A stretch of 64,000 nucleotides of DNA, taken from contig JBNGDC010000001.1 of assembly GCA_049975485.1 (NCBI GenBank), forward strand, positions 144,996 through 208,995. The letters are read 5' to 3'. This DNA is from Phycisphaerae bacterium (GTDB lineage Bacteria > Planctomycetota > Phycisphaerae > SM23-33). The notes beneath the pieces are model-generated. The model was not told the origin of the DNA, ran no database searches, and was given only the letters and a program-made list of their open reading frames with translations. A program made the translations under genes and the position numbers. Shown in pieces: positions 24,960-38,532 of the stretch (position 1 is the first letter of the stretch; every line of letters begins with the position of its first letter).

Positions 24960-25532
24960 ATGACCGGACAGCCCGACACGCCGTCGCCGCAGCACGAGGT
25001 GCTGCTGTGCGTTACGGGGGGTATTGCGTGCTACAAGTCGGCGGACCTGGCGAGCAAGCTGGTGGCCGACGGCTTTGGCGTGACGGTGGCGATGAGTGAG
25101 GCGGCCGAGAGGTTTGTCGCGCCGCTTACGTTCCAGACGCTCACGCGGCGACGGGTTTACACCTCGCTGTGGCAGTCCACGGAGCAGTATGAATCCACGC
25201 ATATCTCAACGTCGGACCTTGCGGAGCTGATGATAGTCGCGCCGGCGACGGCGGACACTATCGCCAAGCTGGCGACAGGCCTGGCCGACGATATTGTCTC
25301 CACGCTGCTGCTGGCCCGCCCGGCCGATTGCCCGCTGCTGCTGGCGCCGGCCATGAACACGCGCATGTGGCAGGCGCCGCCGACCCAGGCCAACATCGAA
25401 AAGCTCAAGGGCTGGGGCGTGCATACGGTAGGCCCGGCCGAGGGGCGGCTTGCATGCGGCGACACGGGACCCGGCAGAATGGCCGAGCCGGCGGACATAC
25501 TCGCCGCAGCCAAAAAGCTTCTGAGCGGGTAG
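24960..25532 (+). CDS. coaC: phosphopantothenoylcysteine decarboxylase (flavoprotein, CoaC half of CoaBC)
   Basis: LLCVTGGIACYK, MIVAPATADTIAKLATGLADD and PAMNTRMW motifs. It is encoded separately from coaB. Confidence 0.85.
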   Translation: MTGQPDTPSPQHEVLLCVTGGIACYKSADLASKLVADGFGVTVAMSEAAERFVAPLTFQTLTRRRVYTSLWQSTEQYESTHISTSDLAELMIVAPATADTIAKLATGLADDIVSTLLLARPADCPLLLAPAMNTRMWQAPPTQANIEKLKGWGVHTVGPAEGRLACGDTGPGRMAEPADILAAAKKLLSG

Positions 25533-25563: not shown

Positions 25564-25761
25564 ATGAAGGTCCGAGAAGTGATAAAATGGCTTCAGGATG
25601 ATGGATGGGTGCAGGTCGTGCAGCGAGGAAGCCATCGCCAGTTCAAGCATCCTGTGAAGCCCGGGAGAGTAACGGTTGCCGGTAATCCCTCCCACGACCT
25701 TGCCCCTGGAACACTGAACAGCATCGTGAAGCAGGCCGGACTTAAGGGTCGCAAGCCATGA
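25564..25761 (+). CDS. hicA: HicA-family mRNA interferase toxin
   Basis: 65 aa: MKVREVIKWLQDDGWVQVVQRGSHRQFKHP...GTLNSIVKQAGL, matching the YcfA/HicA fold signature. It overlaps hicB by 4 nt. Confidence 0.8.
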   Translation: MKVREVIKWLQDDGWVQVVQRGSHRQFKHPVKPGRVTVAGNPSHDLAPGTLNSIVKQAGLKGRKP

Positions 25762-25976
25762 ACTACCTCGTGGTCATCGAGAAGGCGGACGGGAATTACT
25801 CGGCCTATGTACCCGACCTGCCCGGATGCGTCGCCACAGGGGAGACGCTGGAGGAGGTCCGTTCGGCCGTCCGCGACGCGGTGGAGATGCACCTTGCCGG
25901 GCTTCGCGAGGATGGTCAGGAAATTCCGCCGGCACGGGCCATGGGCGAAGTGATCGAAGCCGGCTCCGGTCAATAA
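25758..25976 (+). CDS. hicB: HicB-family antitoxin (UPF0150)
   Basis: 72 aa: YLVVIEKADGNYSAYVPDLPGCVATGETLEEVRSAVRDAVEMHL. Confidence 0.8.
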   Translation: MNYLVVIEKADGNYSAYVPDLPGCVATGETLEEVRSAVRDAVEMHLAGLREDGQEIPPARAMGEVIEAGSGQ

Positions 25977-26130: not shown

Positions 26131-26763
26131 ATGCGGATACTCGTAACAGCCGGTCCCACGCGCGAGCCGATCGACTCGGTTCGGTTCATCACCAACGCCT
26201 CCAGCGGACGCATGGGCTGCGCGGTGGCGTCGGCCGCTGTCGAAGCGGGTCACGACGTGACGCTTCTGCTCGGTCCGTGCCCGGCCGAGCCGCCCGCCGG
26301 CTGCGAGGTGCTACGCTTTATGACGGCCGCGGAACTGAAGCGACTGCTTGAAGAGCACTTCCCCGCCTGCGACGCGCTGGTGATGGCGGCGGCCGTTGGA
26401 GACTTCACGCCCGAAAGACCGGCCGTTGGCAAGCTGCGGCGTTCGTCGGGACCGGTGGAGCTTCGACTGCTGCCTACCGACGACCTGCTCGCCGGCGTTG
26501 CCGCAGGCAAACGACCGGGTCAGAGAATCGTCGCCTTTGCCGTGGAAGCCGGCGACGAGGACGCGATGTCCGCCGCGGCCAGGCGCAAGCTCACCGCCAA
26601 GGGGGCCGATTTCATCGTGGTCAACTCTCCGGAGGCAATGAGCGCCGAGACCAGCCGTGCAGCCATCCTCACCGCCGACGATGTCCTGCTGCCCTGGGGC
26701 GAGCGGACCAAAACGGAGCTGGCGGCGGAGATAGTCAAACTACCGGCGACGGGCGGGAATTGA
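26131..26763 (+). CDS. coaB: phosphopantothenate--cysteine ligase (CoaB half of CoaBC)
   Basis: ILVTAGPTREPIDSVRFITNASSGRMG, AAAVGDF, KADFIV-type motifs. It sits 600 bp downstream of coaC, with hicAB in between. Confidence 0.8.
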   Translation: MRILVTAGPTREPIDSVRFITNASSGRMGCAVASAAVEAGHDVTLLLGPCPAEPPAGCEVLRFMTAAELKRLLEEHFPACDALVMAAAVGDFTPERPAVGKLRRSSGPVELRLLPTDDLLAGVAAGKRPGQRIVAFAVEAGDEDAMSAAARRKLTAKGADFIVVNSPEAMSAETSRAAILTADDVLLPWGERTKTELAAEIVKLPATGGN

Positions 26764-26844: not shown

Positions 26845-27675
26845 TTACTGACCCACAAGCTCTTCGCGGCGCTGTCTCAGCAGGGGCTTTTTATCCTCGG
26901 GCATGTCCGGCTCGGCCAGGAGCTTGTCCAGCCCTTCGACGAAGAAGTCCCTGGCGAAATCGGTGCTGAAGACGCGCTGGTCCTCGGGCCTGGTTTCGAT
27001 GGTCTTGAGAAAACCCTCGAAGTCCTGAAAGTAGCTGCCGTAGATGTGAAAGCTGTCGGCGATGTGTATGTACTCGCCCGGCTCTACGCCCACCTGGCGG
27101 GCGATATCCTCCTGAAGCTCGGTGAAGGCGTACATGTTCATGAAGGCGGCCTTGAAGGCGTCGTTGCTGCGCATGTGCGCGTTCATGTGCAGCCGCCCGT
27201 CGGAAATGCGGAACCACAGCCGCTGGAGGCACGCGGGGTCGTTGATGTTCAGGTCGTTCCACACCTGCCAGGTAACCGCCTGGGCGCGGCGGGTGTGTCC
27301 GACGCTCTTGAGTTTCTCAACGACGGCCGCGAGCTGGTCGATACGCTCGCCGTCCGGCAGGGCGTAGCTGCGCAGGCGCTCGTGGTAGGTGTATTCCCAC
27401 TTGCCGGCGGCGGGGTCTATCCAGTGGTCGTGCACGCCGTAGAGGACTTCGGCGCGGTATTTTTCCAGGTCGTCCAGTCCGCCGGGGAACGCCCGGTGTA
27501 CGCGCGGCTCCCGGAAGGGGTGGGTCACATGAACCACGGCCGTCACGTCCCGACTGTTCGGGTCATCCGGACGGTCGTACTCGGTGGGGAAGCTCTCGCC
27601 CTCGCGCCAGCAGGCGACGACGGCCCGCTCCCAGCCGACGGGGAGCGTCTCGGCGACGACGTGTATCGACTTCAT
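26845..27675 (-). CDS. thymidylate synthase (ThyA) superfamily protein, divergent
   Basis: The C-terminal 170 aa align to the ThyA core: the catalytic Cys is in NDPACLQRLWF (PCH becomes ACL), and HMRSNDAF, FMNMYAFTEL and IHIADSFHIY correspond to YQRSCDVF, FNIASYALL and HTLGDAHLY. The N-terminal 110 aa are unlike canonical ThyA. The start is set at 27675 (GGAGG RBS). Confidence 0.6.
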   Translation of the reverse strand: MKSIHVVAETLPVGWERAVVACWREGESFPTEYDRPDDPNSRDVTAVVHVTHPFREPRVHRAFPGGLDDLEKYRAEVLYGVHDHWIDPAAGKWEYTYHERLRSYALPDGERIDQLAAVVEKLKSVGHTRRAQAVTWQVWNDLNINDPACLQRLWFRISDGRLHMNAHMRSNDAFKAAFMNMYAFTELQEDIARQVGVEPGEYIHIADSFHIYGSYFQDFEGFLKTIETRPEDQRVFSTDFARDFFVEGLDKLLAEPDMPEDKKPLLRQRREELVGQ

Positions 27676-27749
27676 CCTGCCTCCATGCTCGGCGGCACAG
27701 ACCGCAGACATCCTTGTACGCGCGGCGACGGCGTCGGTCAAGCCGTCGT

Positions 27750-28628
27750 TTACAACTTCAGCGATTTGATGATGGAACCGACCGGCTCGGCCCGGTTGAG
27801 GCAGTAGAAATGCAGTCCGGGCGCGCCGCGGTCCAGCAGGTCCTGCGCCTGGCTGACGGCGTAGTCCGTGCCGCGGGCGATCGTCGCGTCGGCGTCGCCC
27901 TTTATAGGATCGAAGATTTCGTGGATGGTATGCGGCACGGTTGCGCCGCAGTTGGCCGCGAAATCCACCAGCTTCTCATAGTCCGTCACGGGCAGCAGGC
28001 CCGGGATAATACGAAGCGTCACGCCCGCCTCACGCACGCGCTGCAGGTACTCCCAGTACAGCATGTTCTCGAAGAAGAACTGCGTGATGCAGTAGTCGGC
28101 CCCGGCGTCCTGTTTCATCTTCAGGAAGTGACTGTCCACGTCCAGGTTCGGCGCCAGGGGGTGGCTTTCGGGAAAGCCCGCCACGCCGATGGAGAAGTGG
28201 TCGTCATGCTCGGAGCGGGTCATCTCCACGAGCTGGTAAGCGTAACGGGGCTGGTCCGGACGGAACTGGTAATCGCGTTCGTGTTGCGGCGGGTCGCCCC
28301 GCAGCGCCATGAGGTTCCGAACGCCGGCGTTTTTCATGCGGTCCAGCTCCCGGCGGATGGAATCCCAAGTGTGCTTGATGCAGGTAAAATGGTGCACCAC
28401 GGGTATGTCAAATTGCTGGATAAGTTCCTCGGCCGTCCGCAGTGTGTTCTCCGCGGTCGTACCGCCGGCTCCGTAGGTGACGCTGAACCAGTCGGCGCCC
28501 AGGTCCACGAGCTTCTCGGCCGTATCGAACAGCCGATCCCGACCCTTGTCGGTCTTGGGCGGGAAGAACTCGAACGAAAGCGTTCGCTGCTTTTGTGCGA
28601 ATACGTCGGTTATCTTGTCCTGCGGCAT
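27750..28628 (-). CDS. metF: 5,10-methylenetetrahydrofolate reductase
   Basis: FEFFPPKT, VTYGAGG, ALRGDPP, ITQFFF and HFYCLNRAE match E. coli MetF along the full length. Confidence 0.9.
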   Translation of the reverse strand: MPQDKITDVFAQKQRTLSFEFFPPKTDKGRDRLFDTAEKLVDLGADWFSVTYGAGGTTAENTLRTAEELIQQFDIPVVHHFTCIKHTWDSIRRELDRMKNAGVRNLMALRGDPPQHERDYQFRPDQPRYAYQLVEMTRSEHDDHFSIGVAGFPESHPLAPNLDVDSHFLKMKQDAGADYCITQFFFENMLYWEYLQRVREAGVTLRIIPGLLPVTDYEKLVDFAANCGATVPHTIHEIFDPIKGDADATIARGTDYAVSQAQDLLDRGAPGLHFYCLNRAEPVGSIIKSLKL

Positions 28629-28782
28629 ATGGCTATGACTCCTTGTGATCGCGAAATCGATGCGAATCGCCGGGCGTTTTCCGTCCGGTCACGCCTGAGG
28701 CCCACGAAGATCGGCCGGCGATACCGGGCACGGACACCCCGCTATCTGGACTGGAGCGACCCGAAAGTATATAGCCCGACGG

Positions 28783-29526
28783 TCAGTACTCGCAAGGTGG
28801 TTCTTTGCCCACCTCCCGGAGCAGGGCGTCGGCCGCTGAGATCTGCTGTTCGGTGCCTTCCACGCCCACCCATAGTGCCCCCTCGGCCCCATGTACGCCG
28901 CCCGCGGCCAGCAGTCGCAGGCACGCGCCGGTGAGCAGTTCGACTGCTTCGAACTCGGTGAACGCCTCGCCGGGCAGAGGCAGCAGGCCCGGGCCCTCAC
29001 CCCGGCCGGGGTCGATCTCGGCGGCCAGCGAGTCCACGTCCTCGAATATGCGCTTTTCCAGCCCGACCGGCACGATGAGCTTTGTACCGCGACCCGCCAC
29101 GGCCGCGATTACGGCGCCGGCGGTGCCGGCCTGTGGGTGGCCTATCAGCACGGCGGGACGGCCCCTGGGGTCCAGGGCGTTCGCTCCCTTGAGGATCAGA
29201 TCGTCCGGGCCGAGATCGTCGGCGACGTCGAATATCTGCTTGCCCTTGAGCCACTTGCCGTCGCGTATGATTACGTCGCCGGCGAATTCGCCCCCGTCGG
29301 CCTTGACGTGGGGCGGGCAGACCACCCCGCGCCGGAAACCCTTTGCAGAGAACCCATCGGCCTCCCCGAGGGTGGCAAGCACCTCCTGTGCGACGTAAGC
29401 GTTTGTTGTGCCGGCTACTATGGCGAGCGTTCCGGATCGCAGCGCGGCCGTGACTTGCGGGTGCTCTGCCAGGGCCTTCGCAATGAGCCGCTTTCCCGCC
29501 GCAGGTGTTATGACGTACTGCTTCAT
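28783..29526 (-). CDS. hypothetical protein (248 aa, Gly/Ala-rich, no family assigned)
   Basis: MKQYVITPAAGKRLIAKALAEHPQVTAALRSGTLAIVAGTTNAYV.... The start is chosen at an internal ATG with an AAGGCGAAGGA RBS. It lies between the BMC shell gene and metF. Confidence 0.4.
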   Translation of the reverse strand: MKQYVITPAAGKRLIAKALAEHPQVTAALRSGTLAIVAGTTNAYVAQEVLATLGEADGFSAKGFRRGVVCPPHVKADGGEFAGDVIIRDGKWLKGKQIFDVADDLGPDDLILKGANALDPRGRPAVLIGHPQAGTAGAVIAAVAGRGTKLIVPVGLEKRIFEDVDSLAAEIDPGRGEGPGLLPLPGEAFTEFEAVELLTGACLRLLAAGGVHGAEGALWVGVEGTEQQISAADALLREVGKEPPCEY

Positions 29527-29676
29527 ATCTTCGGTCCTTCGCCTTTGATATTGGGACGAATGTGGAACGGCATTCCTCAAAACGCGGCCGGGATGAACAC
29601 GGGTAACCGCAGTTCTTACTGCTTATAGCTGTTGTCATCAACCACGTTCCTGCTGCCGCAGGAGCGTGGCAGCAGG

Positions 29677-30264
29677 CTAGATGAATTCGCTGAACAACTC
29701 GCGGTTCGGTCTGGCGATGACCACTTCCGAGACCAGCAGGCCTCGCTCACGGGCCTCGGCGGCGCCGGCGCGTACGCCCGATTCGCAGTCCGCGATGGTC
29801 CCGGTCATCAGGCAGTAGCCCTTCCCGCCCAATGCCATCGCCACGTGTATGCGGAACAGCGTCACGCGTGCCGCCTTGGCGGCAGCGTCGGCGGCCGCGA
29901 CTACGCTCACGCCGCTGAACGTCTCCAGCACTCCCATCGCTTCGACTCTCTCGTCCTCGAGCACCACGGATTGGCCAAGTGCCGGAAACACGCCCGGATG
30001 GACGTTGGGGATCACGAGCTGGTCTATGATGGACTCTCCGGCGGCCTCCACGCCGGCGTTGACCGCCGCCCGGACGTCGCTGACGCCGCCGCCGATGACG
30101 ATGAAGTACTTGCCCGAGCAGATGGTCCTTGCCAGCAGTATCTCGACGTTGGCGGCGTCCAGCATTGTGTCCTGTACGCGGTATCCGATGCCGATGCTGG
30201 TAAGCTCCACCGCTCCTATGCTGCGGGGTGCCCCGGATGCGTGGTTTTGGCTTGCCTCGGCCAT
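29677..30264 (-). CDS. bacterial microcompartment shell protein, tandem BMC-domain (BMC-T, PduT-like)
   Basis: Two canonical BMC (Pfam00936-type) domains: IGAVELTSIGIGYRVQDTMLDAANVEILL...VIGGGVSDVRAAVNAGVEAAGESIIDQLVIPNVHPG, and MGVLETFSGVSVVAAADAAAKAARVTLF...LMTGTIADCESGVRAGAAEARERGLLVSEVVIARPN. Both align residue-by-residue to PduA/CcmK. 195 aa, like PduT. Confidence 0.8.
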   Translation of the reverse strand: MAEASQNHASGAPRSIGAVELTSIGIGYRVQDTMLDAANVEILLARTICSGKYFIVIGGGVSDVRAAVNAGVEAAGESIIDQLVIPNVHPGVFPALGQSVVLEDERVEAMGVLETFSGVSVVAAADAAAKAARVTLFRIHVAMALGGKGYCLMTGTIADCESGVRAGAAEARERGLLVSEVVIARPNRELFSEFI

Positions 30265-30285
30265 GATTATCCTCGAATGCTCTGG

Positions 30286-31614
30286 TTAGCTCTCGATCGT
30301 GACGGTCGATTCATCCACTGCCGTTACCGTGCCGCCGATGGAAGCGTGTATGGGCGCGCCCAGGGCGGGCTTGCCGTCCTTTATGGGCGGGCTTGCGATA
30401 AGGTCGCCCACCGACACCTTCTGTCCGCTCTTGACCTTCGGCTCGCAGGGGGCGCCCACGTGCTGTTTCAGCGGCAGCTTGACCGAAGCCGGCTGCGGGG
30501 ACTCATCCAGCAGGGGACCGACGTTGTGGAAGCCGTCAAGCCCCAGCTTGGTCATCAGTCGTCGCATGGGGGCCTTGCGGTTGCTCATGTGCAGCTCCGG
30601 CCGTCGCGGGTTGAACGGCGGGTCCGTCCACTTGCGCCCTTCTTCGGCGAGGCGACGCTTGTTGACCGCGCAGACGTCCTTGGGGTCGAGGTCCTCCGGG
30701 CAGGCGTACATGCTGCACAGGTTGCATTCGCAGCAGAAGCTCGTGCCGATGACGTTCGGCTCACCGACGAGGTTGAACTCCAGCGAACGCATTGCCTTGT
30801 GCGGCTCGATGGGATGCCCCAGCAGATAACGCGGGCAAAGCTCGGTGCAGAAACTGCACTGGTCGCAGGCGCTGCGGCCGATGCGTTCGCGCTGACTGGC
30901 CGTGCGGGTGTAGCGCCTCGTTACAGTGTGCTCGCCGCCGAGCACAATCACCGCGCCGGTGGTCTTGAGCACCGGCTCGTCGTGGTCCTCGGACAACCGG
31001 CCCATCATCACGCCCCCGACGATGTAATGCGGGTCGGGTACCGTCGCTCCGCCGGCGGCCGCGACGCAGGCCGAAAGCGGGGTGCCCACAGGCACTCGCA
31101 GGGTGCAGGGGTTCTCCACAGCCCCGGCGACGGATATGAACTTCTCCGTCACGGGCCTTTGGGGTGAGGCGGCCACATTAAGCGCGGTCTCGACGTTCAC
31201 GACCACCGCGCCGACGTTCAGCGGAATGCCGCCAGGCGGAACCACCCGTCCGAGCACCTCGTAAACCAGTATGAACTCATCCCCGGCGGGGTAGGCGTCG
31301 CTCAGCGGGGCGATCTCCATGCCTTCGGGAAGCTTGCCCCGCAGGTGGTCTATGACGTCGGTGTACTTGGCCTTTATGCCGATTACTGCCCGCTCGGCTC
31401 CGACCATATCTTTCACTGCGGCAAAACCGGCAAGCACTTCGTCGGCAAAGTGGTGCAGAACCTGTTTGTCCTTATGCAGCAGGGGTTCGCACTCGGCGGC
31501 GTTCAGCAGGACCGTATCGGCCTTTGCCGAGACTTTTACGTGGGTGGGAAACCCCGCGCCTCCGGCGCCGACGACGCCTGCGGAGAATACCGTTTCAACT
31601 GTAACCGGTTGCAT
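30286..31614 (-). CDS. RnfC/PduS-like NADH-binding Fe-S flavoprotein
   Basis: GAGGAGFPTHVK (SLBB/FMN site of NuoF/RnfC) and two 4Fe-4S ferredoxin motifs (CDQCSFCTELCP and CCECNLCSMYACP). The start is at the second ATG (AGGAG RBS). The C-terminal roughly 70 aa form a barrel-sandwich-like domain. Confidence 0.75.
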   Translation of the reverse strand: MQPVTVETVFSAGVVGAGGAGFPTHVKVSAKADTVLLNAAECEPLLHKDKQVLHHFADEVLAGFAAVKDMVGAERAVIGIKAKYTDVIDHLRGKLPEGMEIAPLSDAYPAGDEFILVYEVLGRVVPPGGIPLNVGAVVVNVETALNVAASPQRPVTEKFISVAGAVENPCTLRVPVGTPLSACVAAAGGATVPDPHYIVGGVMMGRLSEDHDEPVLKTTGAVIVLGGEHTVTRRYTRTASQRERIGRSACDQCSFCTELCPRYLLGHPIEPHKAMRSLEFNLVGEPNVIGTSFCCECNLCSMYACPEDLDPKDVCAVNKRRLAEEGRKWTDPPFNPRRPELHMSNRKAPMRRLMTKLGLDGFHNVGPLLDESPQPASVKLPLKQHVGAPCEPKVKSGQKVSVGDLIASPPIKDGKPALGAPIHASIGGTVTAVDESTVTIES

Positions 31615-31778
31615 GGGAACTCCTGGTGAAAGCTGCCGCGCATGGCGGGGCTGCATGAGGGAGGATACTGAATTGAAGGGACCCAGACAAGCGACCGGGC
31701 CGACATATTCGACGACCCGGACGCCCGGTTATCCGGCGACAGGAAAGCTGTGACCGCCTGGTTGTTATCGATGGGTTT

Positions 31779-35679: not shown

Positions 35680-36092
35680 CGTTCGGCCCCTGTCAACACC
35701 GGAGATAGCTAAGTTTTACGAAGTGCTTAGATTGCAGAGAGTGTATGCATCGGCTGCTCCCATGCAATAAAAAACGCCCGCGTCCGCGGGTTTATCACCG
35801 GCGAGATGAGGGCCGGCTGTGCCGTTAGTCGCAGTTACTAGCTTATGTCATAAGGGTTTAGGTCAGGCCACAGGCCGCTATCCAGTTAGCTGAGGAATAT
35901 CAGTCTTTTGGTGTAACATCTGTTTGCAGCAGCGCTTAATATGGAGTGGATGTGTTGTGCTGGGTTATTGCAGATACTGGTGGTATATGCTCGACGGATT
36001 TCTTTTACACTTGACAGGCATGTAAGGGTCAGGTTAGGAAAGGCATTGATGACACTTTCAGTGGCGGCAAGGCCAGGTAGAGGGGTCTGCGA

Positions 36093-37520
36093 ATGAGCGT
36101 ACTGACAAACGGCAGACGTGGCGTGGCTCGTAAGAAGCTGTACGATTTTTATAAGGAAGTCATTACGCCCAATGAGCACCTGAACCGGGGTATCGTCAGC
36201 TTTCAGGGGAATAAGCGGGAGCCGTTTTACCGGTGGTTTAAGTACAAGGAGGGGTTTTCCTCTCATCTAGTAGCGTATTTCCTTCAGTCCACAGGTTTAT
36301 CCGAAGGGACATTACTCGATCCGTTCGCCGGCGCGGGTACGTCGTTGTTCGCAGCTCGGGATTCCGGATGGCGGGCCTTGGGAATCGAATTGCATCCTGT
36401 GCCGCTTTTCGCGATAGAGGCACGTCTTGCTGGAGAATCCCTCGACGGGGCCCGCTTCAACCTGGCGGTCGAGAGGGTGGAGAACAGGGCGTACGAGAGA
36501 CAGCCGGAAGATAAACCGGGTTTTCCGCACCTTAACATCACCAGTGGCGCTTTCCCGCCCTTAAACGAGCAACGTCTTATGGCCTACTGGCATTACTGCC
36601 TGAGTCATGTGAAAGACCCGAGTGTGCGGAAGGTCCTGCAGTTTGCCGCGCTTTGTGTACTGGAGGATATAAGCTATACGAGGAAGGACGGTCAGTACTT
36701 GCGATGGGATGCTCGAAGTCCGAAAAAACGCGGTAAAGGCGCGTTTATCAAAGGGCAGATCGCTGATTTTCACGACGCAATCACGGCAAAGCTACGGATT
36801 ATCAGCTCGGACCTGAGGACCTTGTCCGGCAGCGGGCATTTGTTCAGGCCGACCAGACTGACACGCGGTCCGGTGGATATGTGGGAGGGGTCCTGCCTGA
36901 ATGTGCTTCCCGAAATGTCTTCGGATTCGGTGGACCTGGTTGTCACTTCGCCTCCTTACTGCAACCGCTATGACTATACGCGGACCTACGCCCTGGAGCT
37001 TGCATTACTCGGGCGAAACGAAGAGCAGGTGAAAGGGCTGAGGCAATCCCTTCTTTCCTGCACCGTTGAGAATCGCGCCAAGCGCGAGCAGATTAAGACG
37101 GCTTACGAAGCCCGGTCGGGGCGTGAGGCGTTTGATTTTGTAGAGCAATGCTTTGATTCGGTGGATGCATTGCATGAAGTGCTGGAGATTCTCGAAAGTT
37201 TCGGAAGGGACAATGCTCTCAATAACACAAATATCCCGCGAATGGTGCGGAATTATTTCTACGAGATGAGCTTCGTTATCTACGAGCTTGCTCGTGTTAT
37301 GCGGGCTGAAGGAAAGGTAGTTATGGTTAACGACAACGTTCGCTACGCCGGCGAGGAGGTGCCGGTTGACCTGATTCTGAGCGAACTTGCTCGACAGATG
37401 GGCTTTACCGTGGATAAGATATGGGTTCTGTCCAGAGGTAAGGGTAATAGCAGTCAACAGATGGGAATACATGGGCGAAGAGAGCTGCGAAAGTGCGTAT
37501 ATGTGTGGCAAAAGGAGTAA
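36093..37520 (+). CDS. site-specific DNA amino-methyltransferase (N6-A or N4-C), alpha-class motif order
   Basis: Motif I DPFAGAGTSLFAA (aa 77) and motif IV VVTSPPYCNRYDY (aa 289), with about 200 aa between them (candidate TRD). It lies in a low-GC island. Confidence 0.75.
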   Translation: MSVLTNGRRGVARKKLYDFYKEVITPNEHLNRGIVSFQGNKREPFYRWFKYKEGFSSHLVAYFLQSTGLSEGTLLDPFAGAGTSLFAARDSGWRALGIELHPVPLFAIEARLAGESLDGARFNLAVERVENRAYERQPEDKPGFPHLNITSGAFPPLNEQRLMAYWHYCLSHVKDPSVRKVLQFAALCVLEDISYTRKDGQYLRWDARSPKKRGKGAFIKGQIADFHDAITAKLRIISSDLRTLSGSGHLFRPTRLTRGPVDMWEGSCLNVLPEMSSDSVDLVVTSPPYCNRYDYTRTYALELALLGRNEEQVKGLRQSLLSCTVENRAKREQIKTAYEARSGREAFDFVEQCFDSVDALHEVLEILESFGRDNALNNTNIPRMVRNYFYEMSFVIYELARVMRAEGKVVMVNDNVRYAGEEVPVDLILSELARQMGFTVDKIWVLSRGKGNSSQQMGIHGRRELRKCVYVWQKE

Positions 37521-37560
37521 GCACACCCGTGCAACTATGGACGGCGGAGAGAGGTAAAGG

Positions 37561-38532
37561 ATGAGTAACGGGCCCCCCGGCTGCGATGACCAGTTGATTA
37601 AGGCGTTAACCGCTGCCTATACGGCTCGATCCAAACTTTTTCACGAAGGCGTGAGAAGCTGCAATATTGACCTGCTGATAGCGGAGATCGACGCTCTGGA
37701 TTCAGAGAGCTTGTGCTGGGATTTGGGTACTGTGGGAATCTCGGCGACGTCATGGAAGAAAGTGAAGGAAAGTGGAGCCGTTCCGGAGCAGGTCTTTGTT
37801 CATCCGGATGTGATCGTGAAGAACCCGTCCCTGATCGCCTACTACCGGAACATGGCGACCATATCAAACAAGGGGATGGGTCAGCTATTGTTCTCGACCA
37901 TCGGGTATGAGAAGGGCTCGGGTCGGCAGATCGGGCGGGACCGTGCCGAGGAGTTAAGCCGCGTGCTTAACGGAATCATATCCAACGTAATAGACTCGGT
38001 GGCCGACTACGACGTGCAGGTTAGCCGTAAGGCAATCCTAGCCGAAATCGGCGCCCAGCTTCAGGGCACTTGGGCGAATTTGATAGGTCAGGGGGCGACA
38101 AACCAAGTGGAGCAGATAATTCGGGATCACATCGAGCGGCAGGATCGCGGCAGTCGCATCGAATCAGGTAGGTATCATCTGTCAAACGAATGGAAAATCA
38201 TCTTTGGTACCGAACCGGACGTTGCGTTCTTTGACAAAGATGGTCTATTGCGAATGGCAATCGAGATAAAAGGCAGCCTCGACAAGGCCGGTGCACAAAC
38301 GCGCTATGGAGAAGCCAAAAAGTCGTTTGCCAAGGCAATCAAAGAGAACCCGCGCTGCCATACGATTTATCTTGCTTCTTGTTTCACAGAGGCCGTCGTG
38401 GAGCAAATCAAGGCGGATGGGCAGGTCCGTGAGTGGTTCAACCTGACGTCGATTCTATACGACGATGGCGAGCGAGCCCATTTTCTCGAATCGGTTTTTC
38501 ATGTTGTTGATGCGCCATATCGTACCGGCTGA
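37561..38532 (+). CDS. putative type II restriction endonuclease (PD-(D/E)xK-like), partner of the upstream MTase
   Basis: 323 aa. VAFFDKDGLLRMAIEIKGS contains a D...EIK catalytic-like motif. There is no other homology. It is co-directional with the MTase, 40 bp downstream, and has the same low GC. Confidence 0.45.
   Translation: MSNGPPGCDDQLIKALTAAYTARSKLFHEGVRSCNIDLLIAEIDALDSESLCWDLGTVGISATSWKKVKESGAVPEQVFVHPDVIVKNPSLIAYYRNMATISNKGMGQLLFSTIGYEKGSGRQIGRDRAEELSRVLNGIISNVIDSVADYDVQVSRKAILAEIGAQLQGTWANLIGQGATNQVEQIIRDHIERQDRGSRIESGRYHLSNEWKIIFGTEPDVAFFDKDGLLRMAIEIKGSLDKAGAQTRYGEAKKSFAKAIKENPRCHTIYLASCFTEAVVEQIKADGQVREWFNLTSILYDDGERAHFLESVFHVVDAPYRTG

What the first reader, a model, noticed from the sequence alone, without database searches (positions are those of the whole stretch)
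26845..27675. Divergent ThyA-superfamily enzyme with a non-canonical N-terminal third
The C-terminal core keeps the ThyA nucleophile Cys (PACL in place of PCH) and the Arg and Asp of YQRSCD (here HMRSND), and it keeps the FN(I/M) motif. The first roughly 110 aa lack the RTGTGT and LVTTKR dUMP/folate contacts of canonical thymidylate synthase.

It is encoded directly after metF. This is more consistent with a pyrimidine hydroxymethylase or methylase-like neofunctionalised member than with housekeeping thyA.
Basis: partly seen in the sequence, partly recalled or inferred. Interest (0 to 1): 0.55.

Follow-up and report, generated by a model that had tools for sequence, protein, structure and literature searches.

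The report
Archaeal-type thymidylate synthase in a Phycisphaerae bacterium
The gene encodes a bacterial member of the short "archaeal-type" thymidylate synthase lineage, most likely the cell's ordinary dTMP-making enzyme, but the whole lineage carries active-site features that in phage enzymes mark hydroxymethylases, and its chemistry has never been tested.

Summary
A 276-aa ORF (26845-27675, minus strand) lies 74 nt after metF. It keeps the ThyA nucleophile Cys and the dUMP-binding residues, and its first ~80 aa lack the canonical motifs.

The odd N-terminus is not a one-off. It aligns end to end with methanogen-type ThyA (TIGR03283, E 1.4e-39, below cut-off). A confident AlphaFold model superposes on TS-fold structures over 204-229 residues.

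The protein belongs to a large, strongly conserved family. At least 481 species genomes carry it: Phycisphaerae, Omnitrophota and Armatimonadota, with archaeal cousins. Public records name it thymidylate synthase.

The metF adjacency is lineage-specific: 1 of 80 species loci.

Specificity residues predict dUMP. The position of E. coli Leu143 is an invariant Asp, a Thr precedes the catalytic Tyr, and the TS C-terminal tail is absent. Together these form the published hydroxymethylase signature. A bona fide methanogen-type TS shares them, so they do not discriminate here.

Best reading: a dTMP synthase of archaeal type (~0.6). A dUMP hydroxymethylase is not excluded (~0.18). Whether the genome holds another thyA, thyX or folA could not be tested.

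The parts
26845..27675 (-). CDS, 276 aa: archaeal-type ThyA-family enzyme (stop codon 26845-26847)
   Evidence: ORF list. PF00303 E 6.3e-20. TIGR03283 E 1.4e-39, 135.7 bits against a cut-off of 174.55. 100% identical to P0001, named by NCBI 'MAG: thymidylate synthase [Phycisphaerae bacterium]'. AF2 pLDDT 94.3.
27680..27684 (-). Shine-Dalgarno GGAGG, 4 nt before the ATG at 27675
   Evidence: Read directly from the sequence. The start agrees with the homologues' N-termini.
27433..27675 (-). N-terminal ~81 aa: lineage-specific region. Predicted elements: strand 3-8, helix 11-25, strands 27-29 and 41-50, EPRxH loop 56-60, helix 66-79 with invariant Y73 and E76.
   Evidence: Not matched by Pfam or canonical TS models. 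Matched by TIGR03283 from model position 7. Invariant columns. Secondary structure. hhalign pairs R58/H60 with E. coli R49/H51.
27385..27393 (-). Y95-T96-Y97: Tyr97 corresponds to E. coli Tyr94 (C5 proton abstraction). Thr96 occupies the position of E. coli Val93 / T4 dCH Ser94.
   Evidence: Translation. Alignments. T96 and Y97 are 91-100% conserved in all clades. Role of Ser94/Tyr96 in T4 dCH: PMC6400193.
27286..27291 (-). R129-R130, corresponding to E. coli R126'/R127' (dUMP phosphate clamp donated by the partner subunit)
   Evidence: Alignments. 95-100% conserved.
27229..27240 (-). D146-P-A-C149: catalytic nucleophile Cys149 (E. coli C146). Asp146 sits at the position of E. coli Leu143 / T4 dCH Asp145.
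   Evidence: Translation. hhalign to T4 dCH pairs D146 with D145. Asp in 120/120 Phycisphaerae-clade sequences.
27136..27171 (-). R169-S170-N171-D172...A176...N180, corresponding to E. coli R166, S167, C168, D169, G173, N177
   Evidence: Translation. Alignments. Conservation.
27040..27048 (-). H210-I-Y212, corresponding to E. coli H207/Y209 (deoxyribose 3'-OH contacts)
   Evidence: Alignments. 88-100% conserved.
26848..26991 (-). C-terminal ~48 aa: two predicted helices (242-254, 263-275) with the basic motif MPxDKK..L.R.RR.EL. They replace the canonical TS C-terminal strands and tail.
   Evidence: AF2 secondary structure. Alignments A1/A3. Archaeal and methanogen-type relatives end near aa 230.
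27750..28628 (-). metF (methylenetetrahydrofolate reductase), 74 nt upstream on the same strand; probably co-transcribed
   Evidence: PF02219 E 1.4e-83; TIGR00676 289.1 bits. No terminator-like site on the minus strand between the two genes.
28766..28795 (-). sigma-70-like promoter match upstream of metF (weak, consensus scan only)
   Evidence: 9 of 12 positions matched.

Best explanation
The gene encodes a homodimeric ThyA-fold enzyme of the short archaeal-type lineage. It is most likely this bacterium's thymidylate synthase.

Supported by sequence and model:
- Cys149 is placed to attack C6 of the nucleotide.
- The phosphate would be held by R169, S170 and by R129'/R130' from the partner subunit.
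- Asn180 reads the uracil O4/N3-H, so the base is uracil, not cytosine.
- S170, R129, H210 and Y212 fit a 2'-deoxyribose.
- Asp172 is placed to hold the pterin ring of the one-carbon donor.
- Tyr97 is placed to help remove the C5 proton.

Inferred:
- The donor is 5,10-methylene-tetrahydrofolate. In this lineage the gene lies directly downstream of metF, which uses the same compound, and the two are probably co-transcribed.
- The exocyclic-methylene intermediate is reduced by hydride transfer from the pterin, giving dTMP and dihydrofolate.

The unusual N-terminal 80 residues and the loss of the canonical C-terminal tail are inherited lineage traits. They are shared with methanogen-type ThyA and are not a recent neofunctionalisation.
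For: Family placement:
- Best family is TIGR03283 methanogen-type ThyA, full length, E 1.4e-39.
- AF2 pLDDT 94.3, pTM 0.93.

Catalytic and binding residues are conserved at 88-100% in each clade across 481 family sequences: C149, R169, S170, D172, N180, H210, Y212, R129, R130, Y97.

Housekeeping-type behaviour:
- Top 120 homologues are 72-88% identical across Phycisphaerae/Planctomycetota.
- 481 GTDB species genomes carry a relative.
- 193 clusters at 50% identity score E<=1e-30.
- Neighbourhoods are variable and functionally unrelated.
- Two relatives lie just upstream of class II ribonucleotide reductase.
- Several family members carry inteins placed exactly before the catalytic Cys. From general knowledge, inteins favour such sites in essential replication and nucleotide enzymes.

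The hydroxymethylase-like traits are also present in a true methanogen-type TS:
- PhiF1 ORF59 scores 187.1 against a cut-off of 174.55 and carries E-I-P-C-L and Y-T-Y.
- Methanogen extracts make dTMP from dUMP (PMC9931769).
- ThyA and ThyX counts in Euryarchaeota are close to mutually exclusive (PMC5954106).

Trp85 (E. coli Trp83, which controls solvent access) and Asp172 (which orients hydride transfer) are kept. Public sources name the protein thymidylate synthase.
Against: - No member of this bacterial clade, and hardly any archaeal-type ThyA, has been assayed (PMC9931769, PMC9012536).
- The protein scores below the curated cut-offs of every ThyA equivalog model.
- Six of the twelve residues within 6 A of dUMP C5 in E. 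coli TS differ: W80H, A142N, L143D, H147L, Q165M, C168N. Three of these (L143D, Q165M, C168N) match T4 dCMP hydroxymethylase.
- Asp at -3 from the Cys is the proposed water-activating residue of hydroxymethylases (PMC6400193).
- The TS C-terminal tail that seals the site for hydride transfer is missing.
- Ignisphaera aggregans, a genus whose ThyA homologues fall in the archaeal wing, is reported to carry both ThyA and ThyX (PMC5954106).
- Presence or absence of another TS and of DHFR in this genome was not testable. None was found in the 64-kb window.
Confidence: 0.6

Rival explanations
1. It is a dUMP hydroxymethylase, or another non-reductive C5 one-carbon transferase. The reaction runs as in TS up to the exocyclic methylene. 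Asp146 then activates a water molecule that adds to it, giving 5-hydroxymethyl-dUMP and tetrahydrofolate. The product feeds a modified DNA base or a metabolite.
For: - The published hydroxymethylase signature is Asp/Glu three residues before the Cys, a hydroxyl residue beside the catalytic Tyr, and no C-terminal tail (PMC6400193; PMC13326640).
- Here: D146 in 120/120 of the clade and 94% of the other bacterial members, T96 in 100%, and no tail.
- hhalign pairs D146 with T4 dCH D145.
- M-R-S-N-D is shared with T4 dCH.
- Family members sit in large low-GC viral contigs. In 4 of 21 a deoxypyrimidine 5'-nucleotidase lies nearby, as in hmU-phage pathways.
- Ignisphaera aggregans, whose genus has homologues in the archaeal wing, is reported to carry ThyX as well.
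Against: - The same traits occur in a bona fide methanogen-type TS.
- Trp85 is kept, whereas T4 dCH has Val at this position.
- The gene is a conserved chromosomal gene across a whole bacterial class (one copy in each locus examined). None of the neighbours annotated, nor any recurrent neighbour family, is a base-modifying kinase or glycosyltransferase.
- From general knowledge, no cellular bacterium is known to use pool-level hmdUMP.
- The L143 rule is described only as a correlation.
Confidence: 0.18
2. It makes dTMP, but not with the canonical folate chemistry. The one-carbon donor is a modified pterin (H4MPT-like, as proposed for methanogen-type ThyA), or the hydride comes from a separate reductant bound in the pterin site.
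For: - The residues that differ from canonical TS cluster in the cofactor pocket and in the N-terminal third, which in TS binds the PABA-glutamate tail.
- The cofactor of methanogen ThyA is unresolved (PMC9012536; PMC9931769).
- From memory, some Planctomycetota carry H4MPT-linked C1 genes.
Against: - The gene sits directly after metF, a folate enzyme.
- Asp172, the pterin N3/2-NH2 ligand, is invariant.
- No H4MPT or F420 gene was seen near the gene in the loci examined.
- Nothing in the data positively indicates a second cofactor.
Confidence: 0.12
3. It is an ordinary canonical housekeeping thyA whose N-terminus only looks odd to the eye.
For: NCBI and JGI name it thymidylate synthase. The Pfam match is above the gathering score.
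Against: - It scores far below all canonical ThyA equivalog cut-offs: 61.3 against 108.35, and 72.3 against 327.
- Canonical models and PDB sequences align only from aa ~56-82 onward.
- The TM-score to canonical TS is only 0.52-0.64.
- A long branch separates it from E. coli ThyA.
Confidence: 0.02

Closest known systems
Methanogen-type thymidylate synthase (NCBIfam TIGR03283; example: Methanobacterium virus PhiF1 ORF59, QGH71215.1)
   Same: - Full-length profile alignment, including the distinctive N-terminus.
- Shared motifs: Y-T-Y, (D/E)-x-P-C-L, R-S-x-D, Ala at E. coli G173, Asn at N177, S-x-H-I-Y.
- No canonical small-domain insert and no C-terminal tail.
   Different: - Scores 135.7 bits, under the 174.55 cut-off; about 29% identity over aa 6-212 to the PhiF1 copy (tblastn).
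- The window protein keeps the H-D-H-W segment (E. coli W80-W83 region) that the PhiF1 protein lacks.
- It has a ~48-aa helical C-terminal extension.
- It comes from a bacterium that encodes folate enzymes, not from a methanogen.
Archaeal relatives from Thermoproteota and Bathyarchaeia (Ignisphaera, Desulfurococcaceae, Thermofilaceae), all named thymidylate synthase
   Same: Same family by full-length alignment, 37-50% identity. The same N-terminal invariants and the same catalytic set.
   Different: - Position -3 from the Cys is His, Ser or Tyr, not Asp.
- Trp85 is replaced by Leu, Arg or Ala.
- The proteins are shorter (230-250 aa).
- They form a separate clade in the NJ tree.
Canonical ThyA (E. 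coli, L. casei; PF00303, TIGR03284)
   Same: - Kept residues: C146, R166, S167, D169, N177, H207, Y209, R126', R127', Y94, W83.
   Different: - About 22-26% identity, and only from aa ~56-82 onward.
- RTGTGT is absent.
- Substitutions W80H, L143D, H147L, Q165M, C168N.
- The helix-C/small-domain segment is deleted.
- No C-terminal beta-strands or tail.
T4 dCMP hydroxymethylase (gp42, PDB 1b49/6a9a)
   Same: - Short TS-fold enzyme without the TS tail.
- Asp three residues before the Cys.
- M-R-S-N-D motif.
   Different: - T4 dCH has Asp179, which specifies cytosine; the window protein has Asn180.
- T4 dCH has Val85 where the window protein keeps Trp85.
- hhalign covers only aa 111-234, probability 94%.
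MilA CMP hydroxymethylase (PDB 5jnh/5b6d)
   Different: - MilA has Asp at both the N177 and L143 positions.
- MilA has Ala176 and Lys133' for ribose. The window protein has S170 and R129, the deoxyribose-type pair.
Phage flavin-dependent 5-hydroxy-dCMP synthases (RB69 gp48, DLP3 gp80; PDB 9iqc)
   Different: Their diagnostic D169N and N177D substitutions are both absent here (D172, N180).

Membership tests
ThyA / dCMP-hydroxymethylase superfamily (Pfam PF00303 fold) | Profile match above the gathering score | tested here: met
   71.9 bits against 24.3, E 6.3e-20.
ThyA / dCMP-hydroxymethylase superfamily (Pfam PF00303 fold) | TS fold | tested here: met
   [not shown]
ThyA / dCMP-hydroxymethylase superfamily (Pfam PF00303 fold) | Catalytic Cys plus the phosphate-binding Arg/Ser set and the Arg pair from the partner subunit | tested here: met
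   C149, R169, S170, R129, R130. 95-100% conserved.
Canonical bacterial/eukaryotic ThyA (TIGR03284, PRK01827 models) | Score at or above the curated equivalog cut-off | tested here: not met
   61.3 against 108.35; 72.3 against 327.
Canonical bacterial/eukaryotic ThyA (TIGR03284, PRK01827 models) | N-terminal R21 loop (RTGTGT) and LVTTKR folate-tail contacts | tested here: not met
   No RTGTGT. Only R58 and H60 align, to R49 and H51. A candidate R21 equivalent (position 42) is not conserved.
Canonical bacterial/eukaryotic ThyA (TIGR03284, PRK01827 models) | Hydrophobic Leu143 and Trp80 shielding the methylene intermediate | tested here: not met
   D146 and H82 occupy these positions; Trp83 is kept as W85.
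Canonical bacterial/eukaryotic ThyA (TIGR03284, PRK01827 models) | C-terminal tail that closes over the folate | tested here: not met
   The C-terminus is two helices not homologous to the TS tail. Whether they cover the site could not be examined.
Canonical bacterial/eukaryotic ThyA (TIGR03284, PRK01827 models) | Glu58 general acid | tested here: inconclusive
   Invariant E76 sits on the single helix 66-79, but MAFFT and hhalign place it differently. No coordinates were available for a superposition.
Methanogen-type ThyA (TIGR03283) | Full-length match including the family's distinctive N-terminus | tested here: met
   aa 10-216 align to model positions 7-198 of 201, E 1.4e-39.
Methanogen-type ThyA (TIGR03283) | Score at or above the curated cut-off (174.55) | tested here: not met
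   135.7 bits. Ten diverse relatives score 106-157. PhiF1 ORF59 passes with 187.1. The window protein is therefore a sister family, not a member of the equivalog.
Methanogen-type ThyA (TIGR03283) | Sole thymidylate synthase of its genome | not testable with these tools
   Only 64 kb of the genome is held, and it contains no thyX, thyA or folA.
Pyrimidine hydroxymethylases (T4 dCH / MilA signature, PMC6400193) | [quoted passage not shown] | tested here: met
   D146-x-x-C149. hhalign pairs it with D145. 120/120 in the clade. PhiF1 TS also has Glu at this position.
Pyrimidine hydroxymethylases (T4 dCH / MilA signature, PMC6400193) | Ser or Thr partner beside the catalytic Tyr | tested here: inconclusive
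   T96 occupies the E. coli V93 position, which the paper equates structurally with Ser94. In sequence register T4 has S-x-Y whereas this protein has T-Y.
Pyrimidine hydroxymethylases (T4 dCH / MilA signature, PMC6400193) | Small residue instead of Trp83 | tested here: not met
   W85 is 100% conserved in the bacterial clades. T4 dCH has Val85.
Pyrimidine hydroxymethylases (T4 dCH / MilA signature, PMC6400193) | Hydroxymethylated product and tetrahydrofolate as co-product | not testable with these tools
   Needs an enzyme assay.
Cytosine-specific members (dCMP/CMP hydroxymethylases, 5hodCMP synthases) | Asp at the E. coli N177 position | tested here: not met
   N180, conserved at 95-100%.
Flavin-dependent 5-hydroxy-dCMP synthases | Asn at the E. 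coli D169 position | tested here: not met
   D172, conserved at 97-100%.

The most novel reading that the evidence does not exclude
The bacterial wing of this family (invariant Asp at -3 from the Cys, Thr-Tyr, Asn177, no TS tail) is a cellular dUMP hydroxymethylase. Alternatively it is a dTMP synthase whose last step does not use the folate hydride. Either way, Phycisphaerae, Omnitrophota and Armatimonadota would run a pyrimidine C5 chemistry so far known only from phages, and the long-assumed activity of archaeal-type 'ThyA' would need re-examination.
Probability: 0.15. Interest if true: 0.85.

Novelty: new member of a known kind. Interest (0 to 1): 0.42.

Why it matters
Archaeal-type ThyA is one of the least characterised essential enzymes. 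The papers read here say its cofactor and full reaction have not been reconstituted (PMC9931769, PMC9012536).

This window shows that the lineage has a large, strongly conserved bacterial wing, present in at least 481 species genomes. The organisms concerned encode ordinary folate enzymes, and here the gene sits directly after metF. Such a protein should be assayable with commercial methylene-tetrahydrofolate and by complementation of an E. coli thyA mutant.

That would make two questions directly testable:
- How does a TS work without Leu143, Trp80 and the C-terminal tail?
- Is the 'Asp three residues before Cys' rule, now used to call hydroxymethylases in phage genomes, reliable outside phages?

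If the enzyme turns out to be an ordinary TS, the practical outcome is a caution for annotating phage DNA-modification genes, plus a missing curated family model for the bacterial clade.

Tried and rejected
Functions rejected:
- Cytosine substrate: Asn180 is present, not Asp.
- Ribonucleotide substrate: S170 and R129 are the deoxy-type pair by the MilA criteria.
- 5-hydroxy-dCMP synthase: D172 is present, not Asn.
- Conserved metF-thyA operon: metF is adjacent in only 1 of 80 species loci.
- Fusion partners as functional clues: the long family members are intein insertions or one RNase H-like fusion. None is fused to DHFR.

Steps that led nowhere:
- The look-up of encoding contigs found no record of P0001.
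- The listing of cluster members gave no organism names.
- The 31-sequence alignment was too diverse for a locus scan.
- The AlphaFold-database library was not available.
- The viral structure library gave only generic TS-fold hits.
- Literature searches for Phycisphaerae thymidylate synthase, MJ0757 and 'archaeal-type thymidylate synthase' found nothing specific.
- De novo clustering of neighbour ORFs was polluted by shadow ORFs of the high-GC DNA. The recurrent neighbour clusters that were not shadow ORFs were, read by eye from the cluster sequences and matched to the Pfam families called, a membrane protein, a GGDEF protein, a DUF1570-like protein and an AsmA-like protein — none with a nucleotide or folate role.
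- tblastn for E. coli ThyA, T. maritima ThyX and E. coli FolA found nothing else in the window or within 10 kb of the 85 related loci held at that point (L001-L085). This has no power at the genome level.
Full report
**What is there**

The finding's coordinates hold a real gene: 26845-27675, minus strand, 276 aa.
- The ATG at 27675 is preceded by GGAGG four bases upstream.
- It matches the N-termini of all homologues, so the longer TTG-started ORF reaching 27741 is not the gene.
- Translation confirms D146-P-A-C149, R169-S-N-D172...F-M-N180 and Y95-T-Y97.
- metF (PF02219, E 1.4e-83) ends 74 nt upstream on the same strand. No terminator-like site lies between the two genes, and a weak promoter match lies upstream of metF.
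- The window is about 63% G+C.
- An identical protein is on record as 'MAG: thymidylate synthase [Phycisphaerae bacterium]' on a 213,750-bp contig.

**Is the N-terminal third really non-canonical?**

Against canonical ThyA, yes.
- Pfam PF00303 covers only aa 82-224.
- PDB sequences align from aa ~72-82.
- hhalign of a 56-sequence family profile to E. coli ThyA starts at aa 56, pairing EPRVHR with TKRCHL.
- RTGTGT is absent.

The region is not an orphan, however.
- The best family model is TIGR03283, methanogen-type thymidylate synthase. It aligns positions 7-198 of 201 to aa 10-216 with E 1.4e-39.
- The N-terminal 80 residues are full of family-invariant positions: W15, E16, G26, T31, Y33, P53, E56, P57, R58, H60, Y73, E76, G80.
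- An AlphaFold2 model built on 56 homologues is confident: pLDDT 94.3, pTM 0.93.
- The order of elements parallels canonical TS, minus the helix-C/small-domain segment: strand, helix 11-25, strands 27-29 and 41-50, loop, helix 66-79, then the H-D-H-W segment.
- After helix 213-228 the canonical C-terminal strands and tail are replaced by two helices.

**The family**

The protein scores 135.7 bits on TIGR03283, below the 174.55 cut-off. It is far below every canonical ThyA equivalog cut-off.

Ten diverse relatives behave the same way, at 106-157 bits. Methanobacterium virus PhiF1 ORF59 passes with 187.1. The window protein therefore belongs to a sister family of the curated methanogen type.

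That family is large:
- 4867 clusters at 50% identity score E<=1e-3, and 193 score E<=1e-30, with full-length matches.
- 481 GTDB species genomes encode a relative. The best 80 are 65-88% identical and almost all are Phycisphaerae/Planctomycetota MAGs.
- Other named members come from Omnitrophota, Armatimonadota and one Bacillota MAG.
- Archaeal members come from Thermoprotei, Ignisphaera, Desulfurococcaceae, Thermofilaceae and Bathyarchaeia.

A rough NJ tree puts the Phycisphaerae clade inside the bacterial wing. It is separate from the archaeal wing and lies on a long branch from E. coli ThyA.

A 2023 survey reports that archaeal ThyA separates from bacterial plus eukaryotic ThyA with 100% bootstrap support (PMC9931769). 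No passage of that paper read here mentions a bacterial wing of the archaeal type, and searches of the held library found nothing describing one.

**Context**

The metF adjacency is lineage-specific.
- Among 80 species-level loci, only the 88%-identical syntenic relative has metF next to the gene. One more has it 4 kb away.
- Elsewhere the neighbours vary and have nothing to do with nucleotides or folate.
- Two related genomes have class II ribonucleotide reductase just downstream.
- No thyX, canonical thyA or folA lies in the 64-kb window or within 10 kb of the related genome loci examined. This says nothing about whole genomes.

**Substrate**

E. coli ThyA numbering was verified.
- The nucleotide-binding set is intact and conserved at 88-100% in each clade across 481 sequences: C149 (C146), R169 (R166), S170 (S167), R129/R130 (R126'/R127'), N180 (N177), H210 (H207), Y212 (Y209), Y97 (Y94).
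- Asn at position 177 specifies uracil rather than cytosine (PMC13326640).
- Ser at 167 and Arg at 126' are the deoxyribose-type pair in the MilA study (PMC5175136).
- Asp172 (D169), the pterin ligand, is kept. This also excludes the newly described flavin-dependent 5-hydroxy-dCMP synthases, which carry D169N.

The substrate is therefore predicted to be dUMP together with a methylene-tetrahydropterin.

**Product: the open point**

Of the twelve residues within 6 A of dUMP C5 in E. coli TS, six differ here: W80H, A142N, L143D, H147L, Q165M, C168N.

The T4 dCMP hydroxymethylase ternary-complex study proposes a hydroxymethylation signature (PMC6400193):
- Asp or Glu three residues before the Cys. 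It activates the substrate water, and the D145N mutant is dead.
- A Ser or Thr beside the catalytic Tyr.
- No C-terminal tail.
- Val in place of Trp83.

The window protein compares as follows:
- Asp146 is at that exact spot. hhalign pairs it with D145, and it is Asp in 120/120 sequences of the Phycisphaerae clade and in 94% of the other bacterial members.
- Thr96 precedes Tyr97.
- There is no TS tail.
- It shares M-R-S-N-D with T4 dCH.
- Part of MilA's lead probably reflects its helical C-terminal domain.

**Why I still favour dTMP synthesis**

1. The same traits are present in a bona fide methanogen-type TS. PhiF1 ORF59 has E-I-P-C-L and Y-T-Y, ends shortly after the S-A-H-I-Y motif with no canonical tail, and lacks both Trp residues. 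Methanogen extracts convert dUMP to dTMP. ThyA and ThyX counts in Euryarchaeota are close to exclusive, 40 plus 15 in 56 genomes. The traits therefore belong to the lineage and are compatible with dTMP formation.
2. Trp85, which controls solvent access in E. coli TS, is invariant in the bacterial wing, unlike in T4 dCH.
3. The gene behaves as a core chromosomal gene. It is 72-88% identical across a bacterial class. Neither the neighbours annotated nor the recurrent neighbour families include a base-modifying kinase or glycosyltransferase.
4. Several family members carry inteins inserted exactly before the catalytic Cys, read as ...P-A-C|F-x-G-G-T-x-I.... From general knowledge, this is the kind of site inteins occupy in essential replication and nucleotide enzymes.
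5. COG counts for six Planctomycetes genomes, ThyA 5 and ThyX 1, fit one TS per genome.

**Against**

- Ignisphaera aggregans is reported to carry both ThyA and ThyX, and homologues from Ignisphaera fall in the archaeal wing.
- Humisphaera borealis, a planctomycete that I place in Phycisphaerae from memory, has ThyX.
- Nobody has assayed a member of this family.

I could not check whether this genome has thyX, another thyA or a DHFR.

**Verdict**

The best explanation is a bacterial member of the archaeal-type thymidylate synthase lineage that makes dTMP from dUMP and methylene-tetrahydrofolate (about 0.6). Rivals are a dUMP hydroxymethylase (about 0.18) and a dTMP synthase with a non-canonical carrier or reductant (about 0.12).

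Interest is moderate. The gene is already named thymidylate synthase in public records and belongs to a known kind. It does offer a tractable, folate-world entry point to an enzyme lineage whose chemistry is still unproven, and a test of a residue rule now used to annotate phage DNA-modification genes.

Noticed in passing
P0123, P0132, P0145, P0169, P0181 (also P0140, P0167, P0180, P0205): Long members of the family (427-789 aa) are interrupted by inteins: Hint/Intein_splicing domains, several with a LAGLIDADG homing endonuclease. In five of them the intein begins right at the ...P-A/P-C position, immediately before the catalytic cysteine. Others are inserted at other sites.
   Followed up: partly
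P0152: One family member has an N-terminal RNase H / RVT_3-like domain fused to the ThyA-like domain.
   Followed up: no
L086-L106 (IMG/VR contigs, 8-350 kb, GC 25-56%): 21 'viral' contigs encode family members at 33-66% identity. 17 of them carry the D-x-x-C motif (one Glu, three Phe/His). In 4 of 21 an NT5C-type deoxypyrimidine 5'-nucleotidase lies 1-5 kb away. L102 and L104 have class II RNR plus a dUTPase/Dcd-like gene, and L103 has a thymidylate-kinase-like gene directly downstream. Whether these are true viruses, and what base they make, is open.
   Followed up: partly
L073 5099-7350: A 33% GC contig labelled 'Candidatus Nanoarchaeia archaeon' encodes a 67%-identical homologue. It is followed after 5 nt by a thymidylate kinase and faced by a dCTP deaminase. 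Its composition is far from the 63% GC Phycisphaerae window, so mis-binning or a virus is possible.
   Followed up: partly
L021, L026, L061, L068, L079: Loci with 65-74% identical proteins come from MAGs labelled Fibrobacteraceae, Spirochaetes, Actinomycetes or Actinomycetota. This is probably mislabelled or mis-binned Planctomycetota DNA rather than wide transfer.
   Followed up: no
window 25564-25976 (+): A HicA toxin / HicB antitoxin pair (PF07927, PF15919) is inserted between the separate coaC (24960-25532) and coaB (26131-26763) genes. The syntenic relative L004 has coaC and coaB adjacent, without the pair.
   Followed up: partly
window 28783-31656 (-): Three genes lie upstream of metF on the same strand: a PduS/RnfC-like flavo-iron-sulfur protein (Complex1_51K, SLBB, Fer4_17, RnfC_N), a tandem BMC-domain shell protein, and a 265-aa protein with no Pfam or NCBIfam match. 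Together they look like a small microcompartment-associated module. It is conserved in L004 and partly in L081.
   Followed up: no
window 36001-38000: G+C drops to 0.534 against ~0.62-0.65 in the rest of the window, with high GC skew (0.156). The stretch overlaps an ORF at 36093-37520 (+). Possibly foreign DNA.
   Followed up: no
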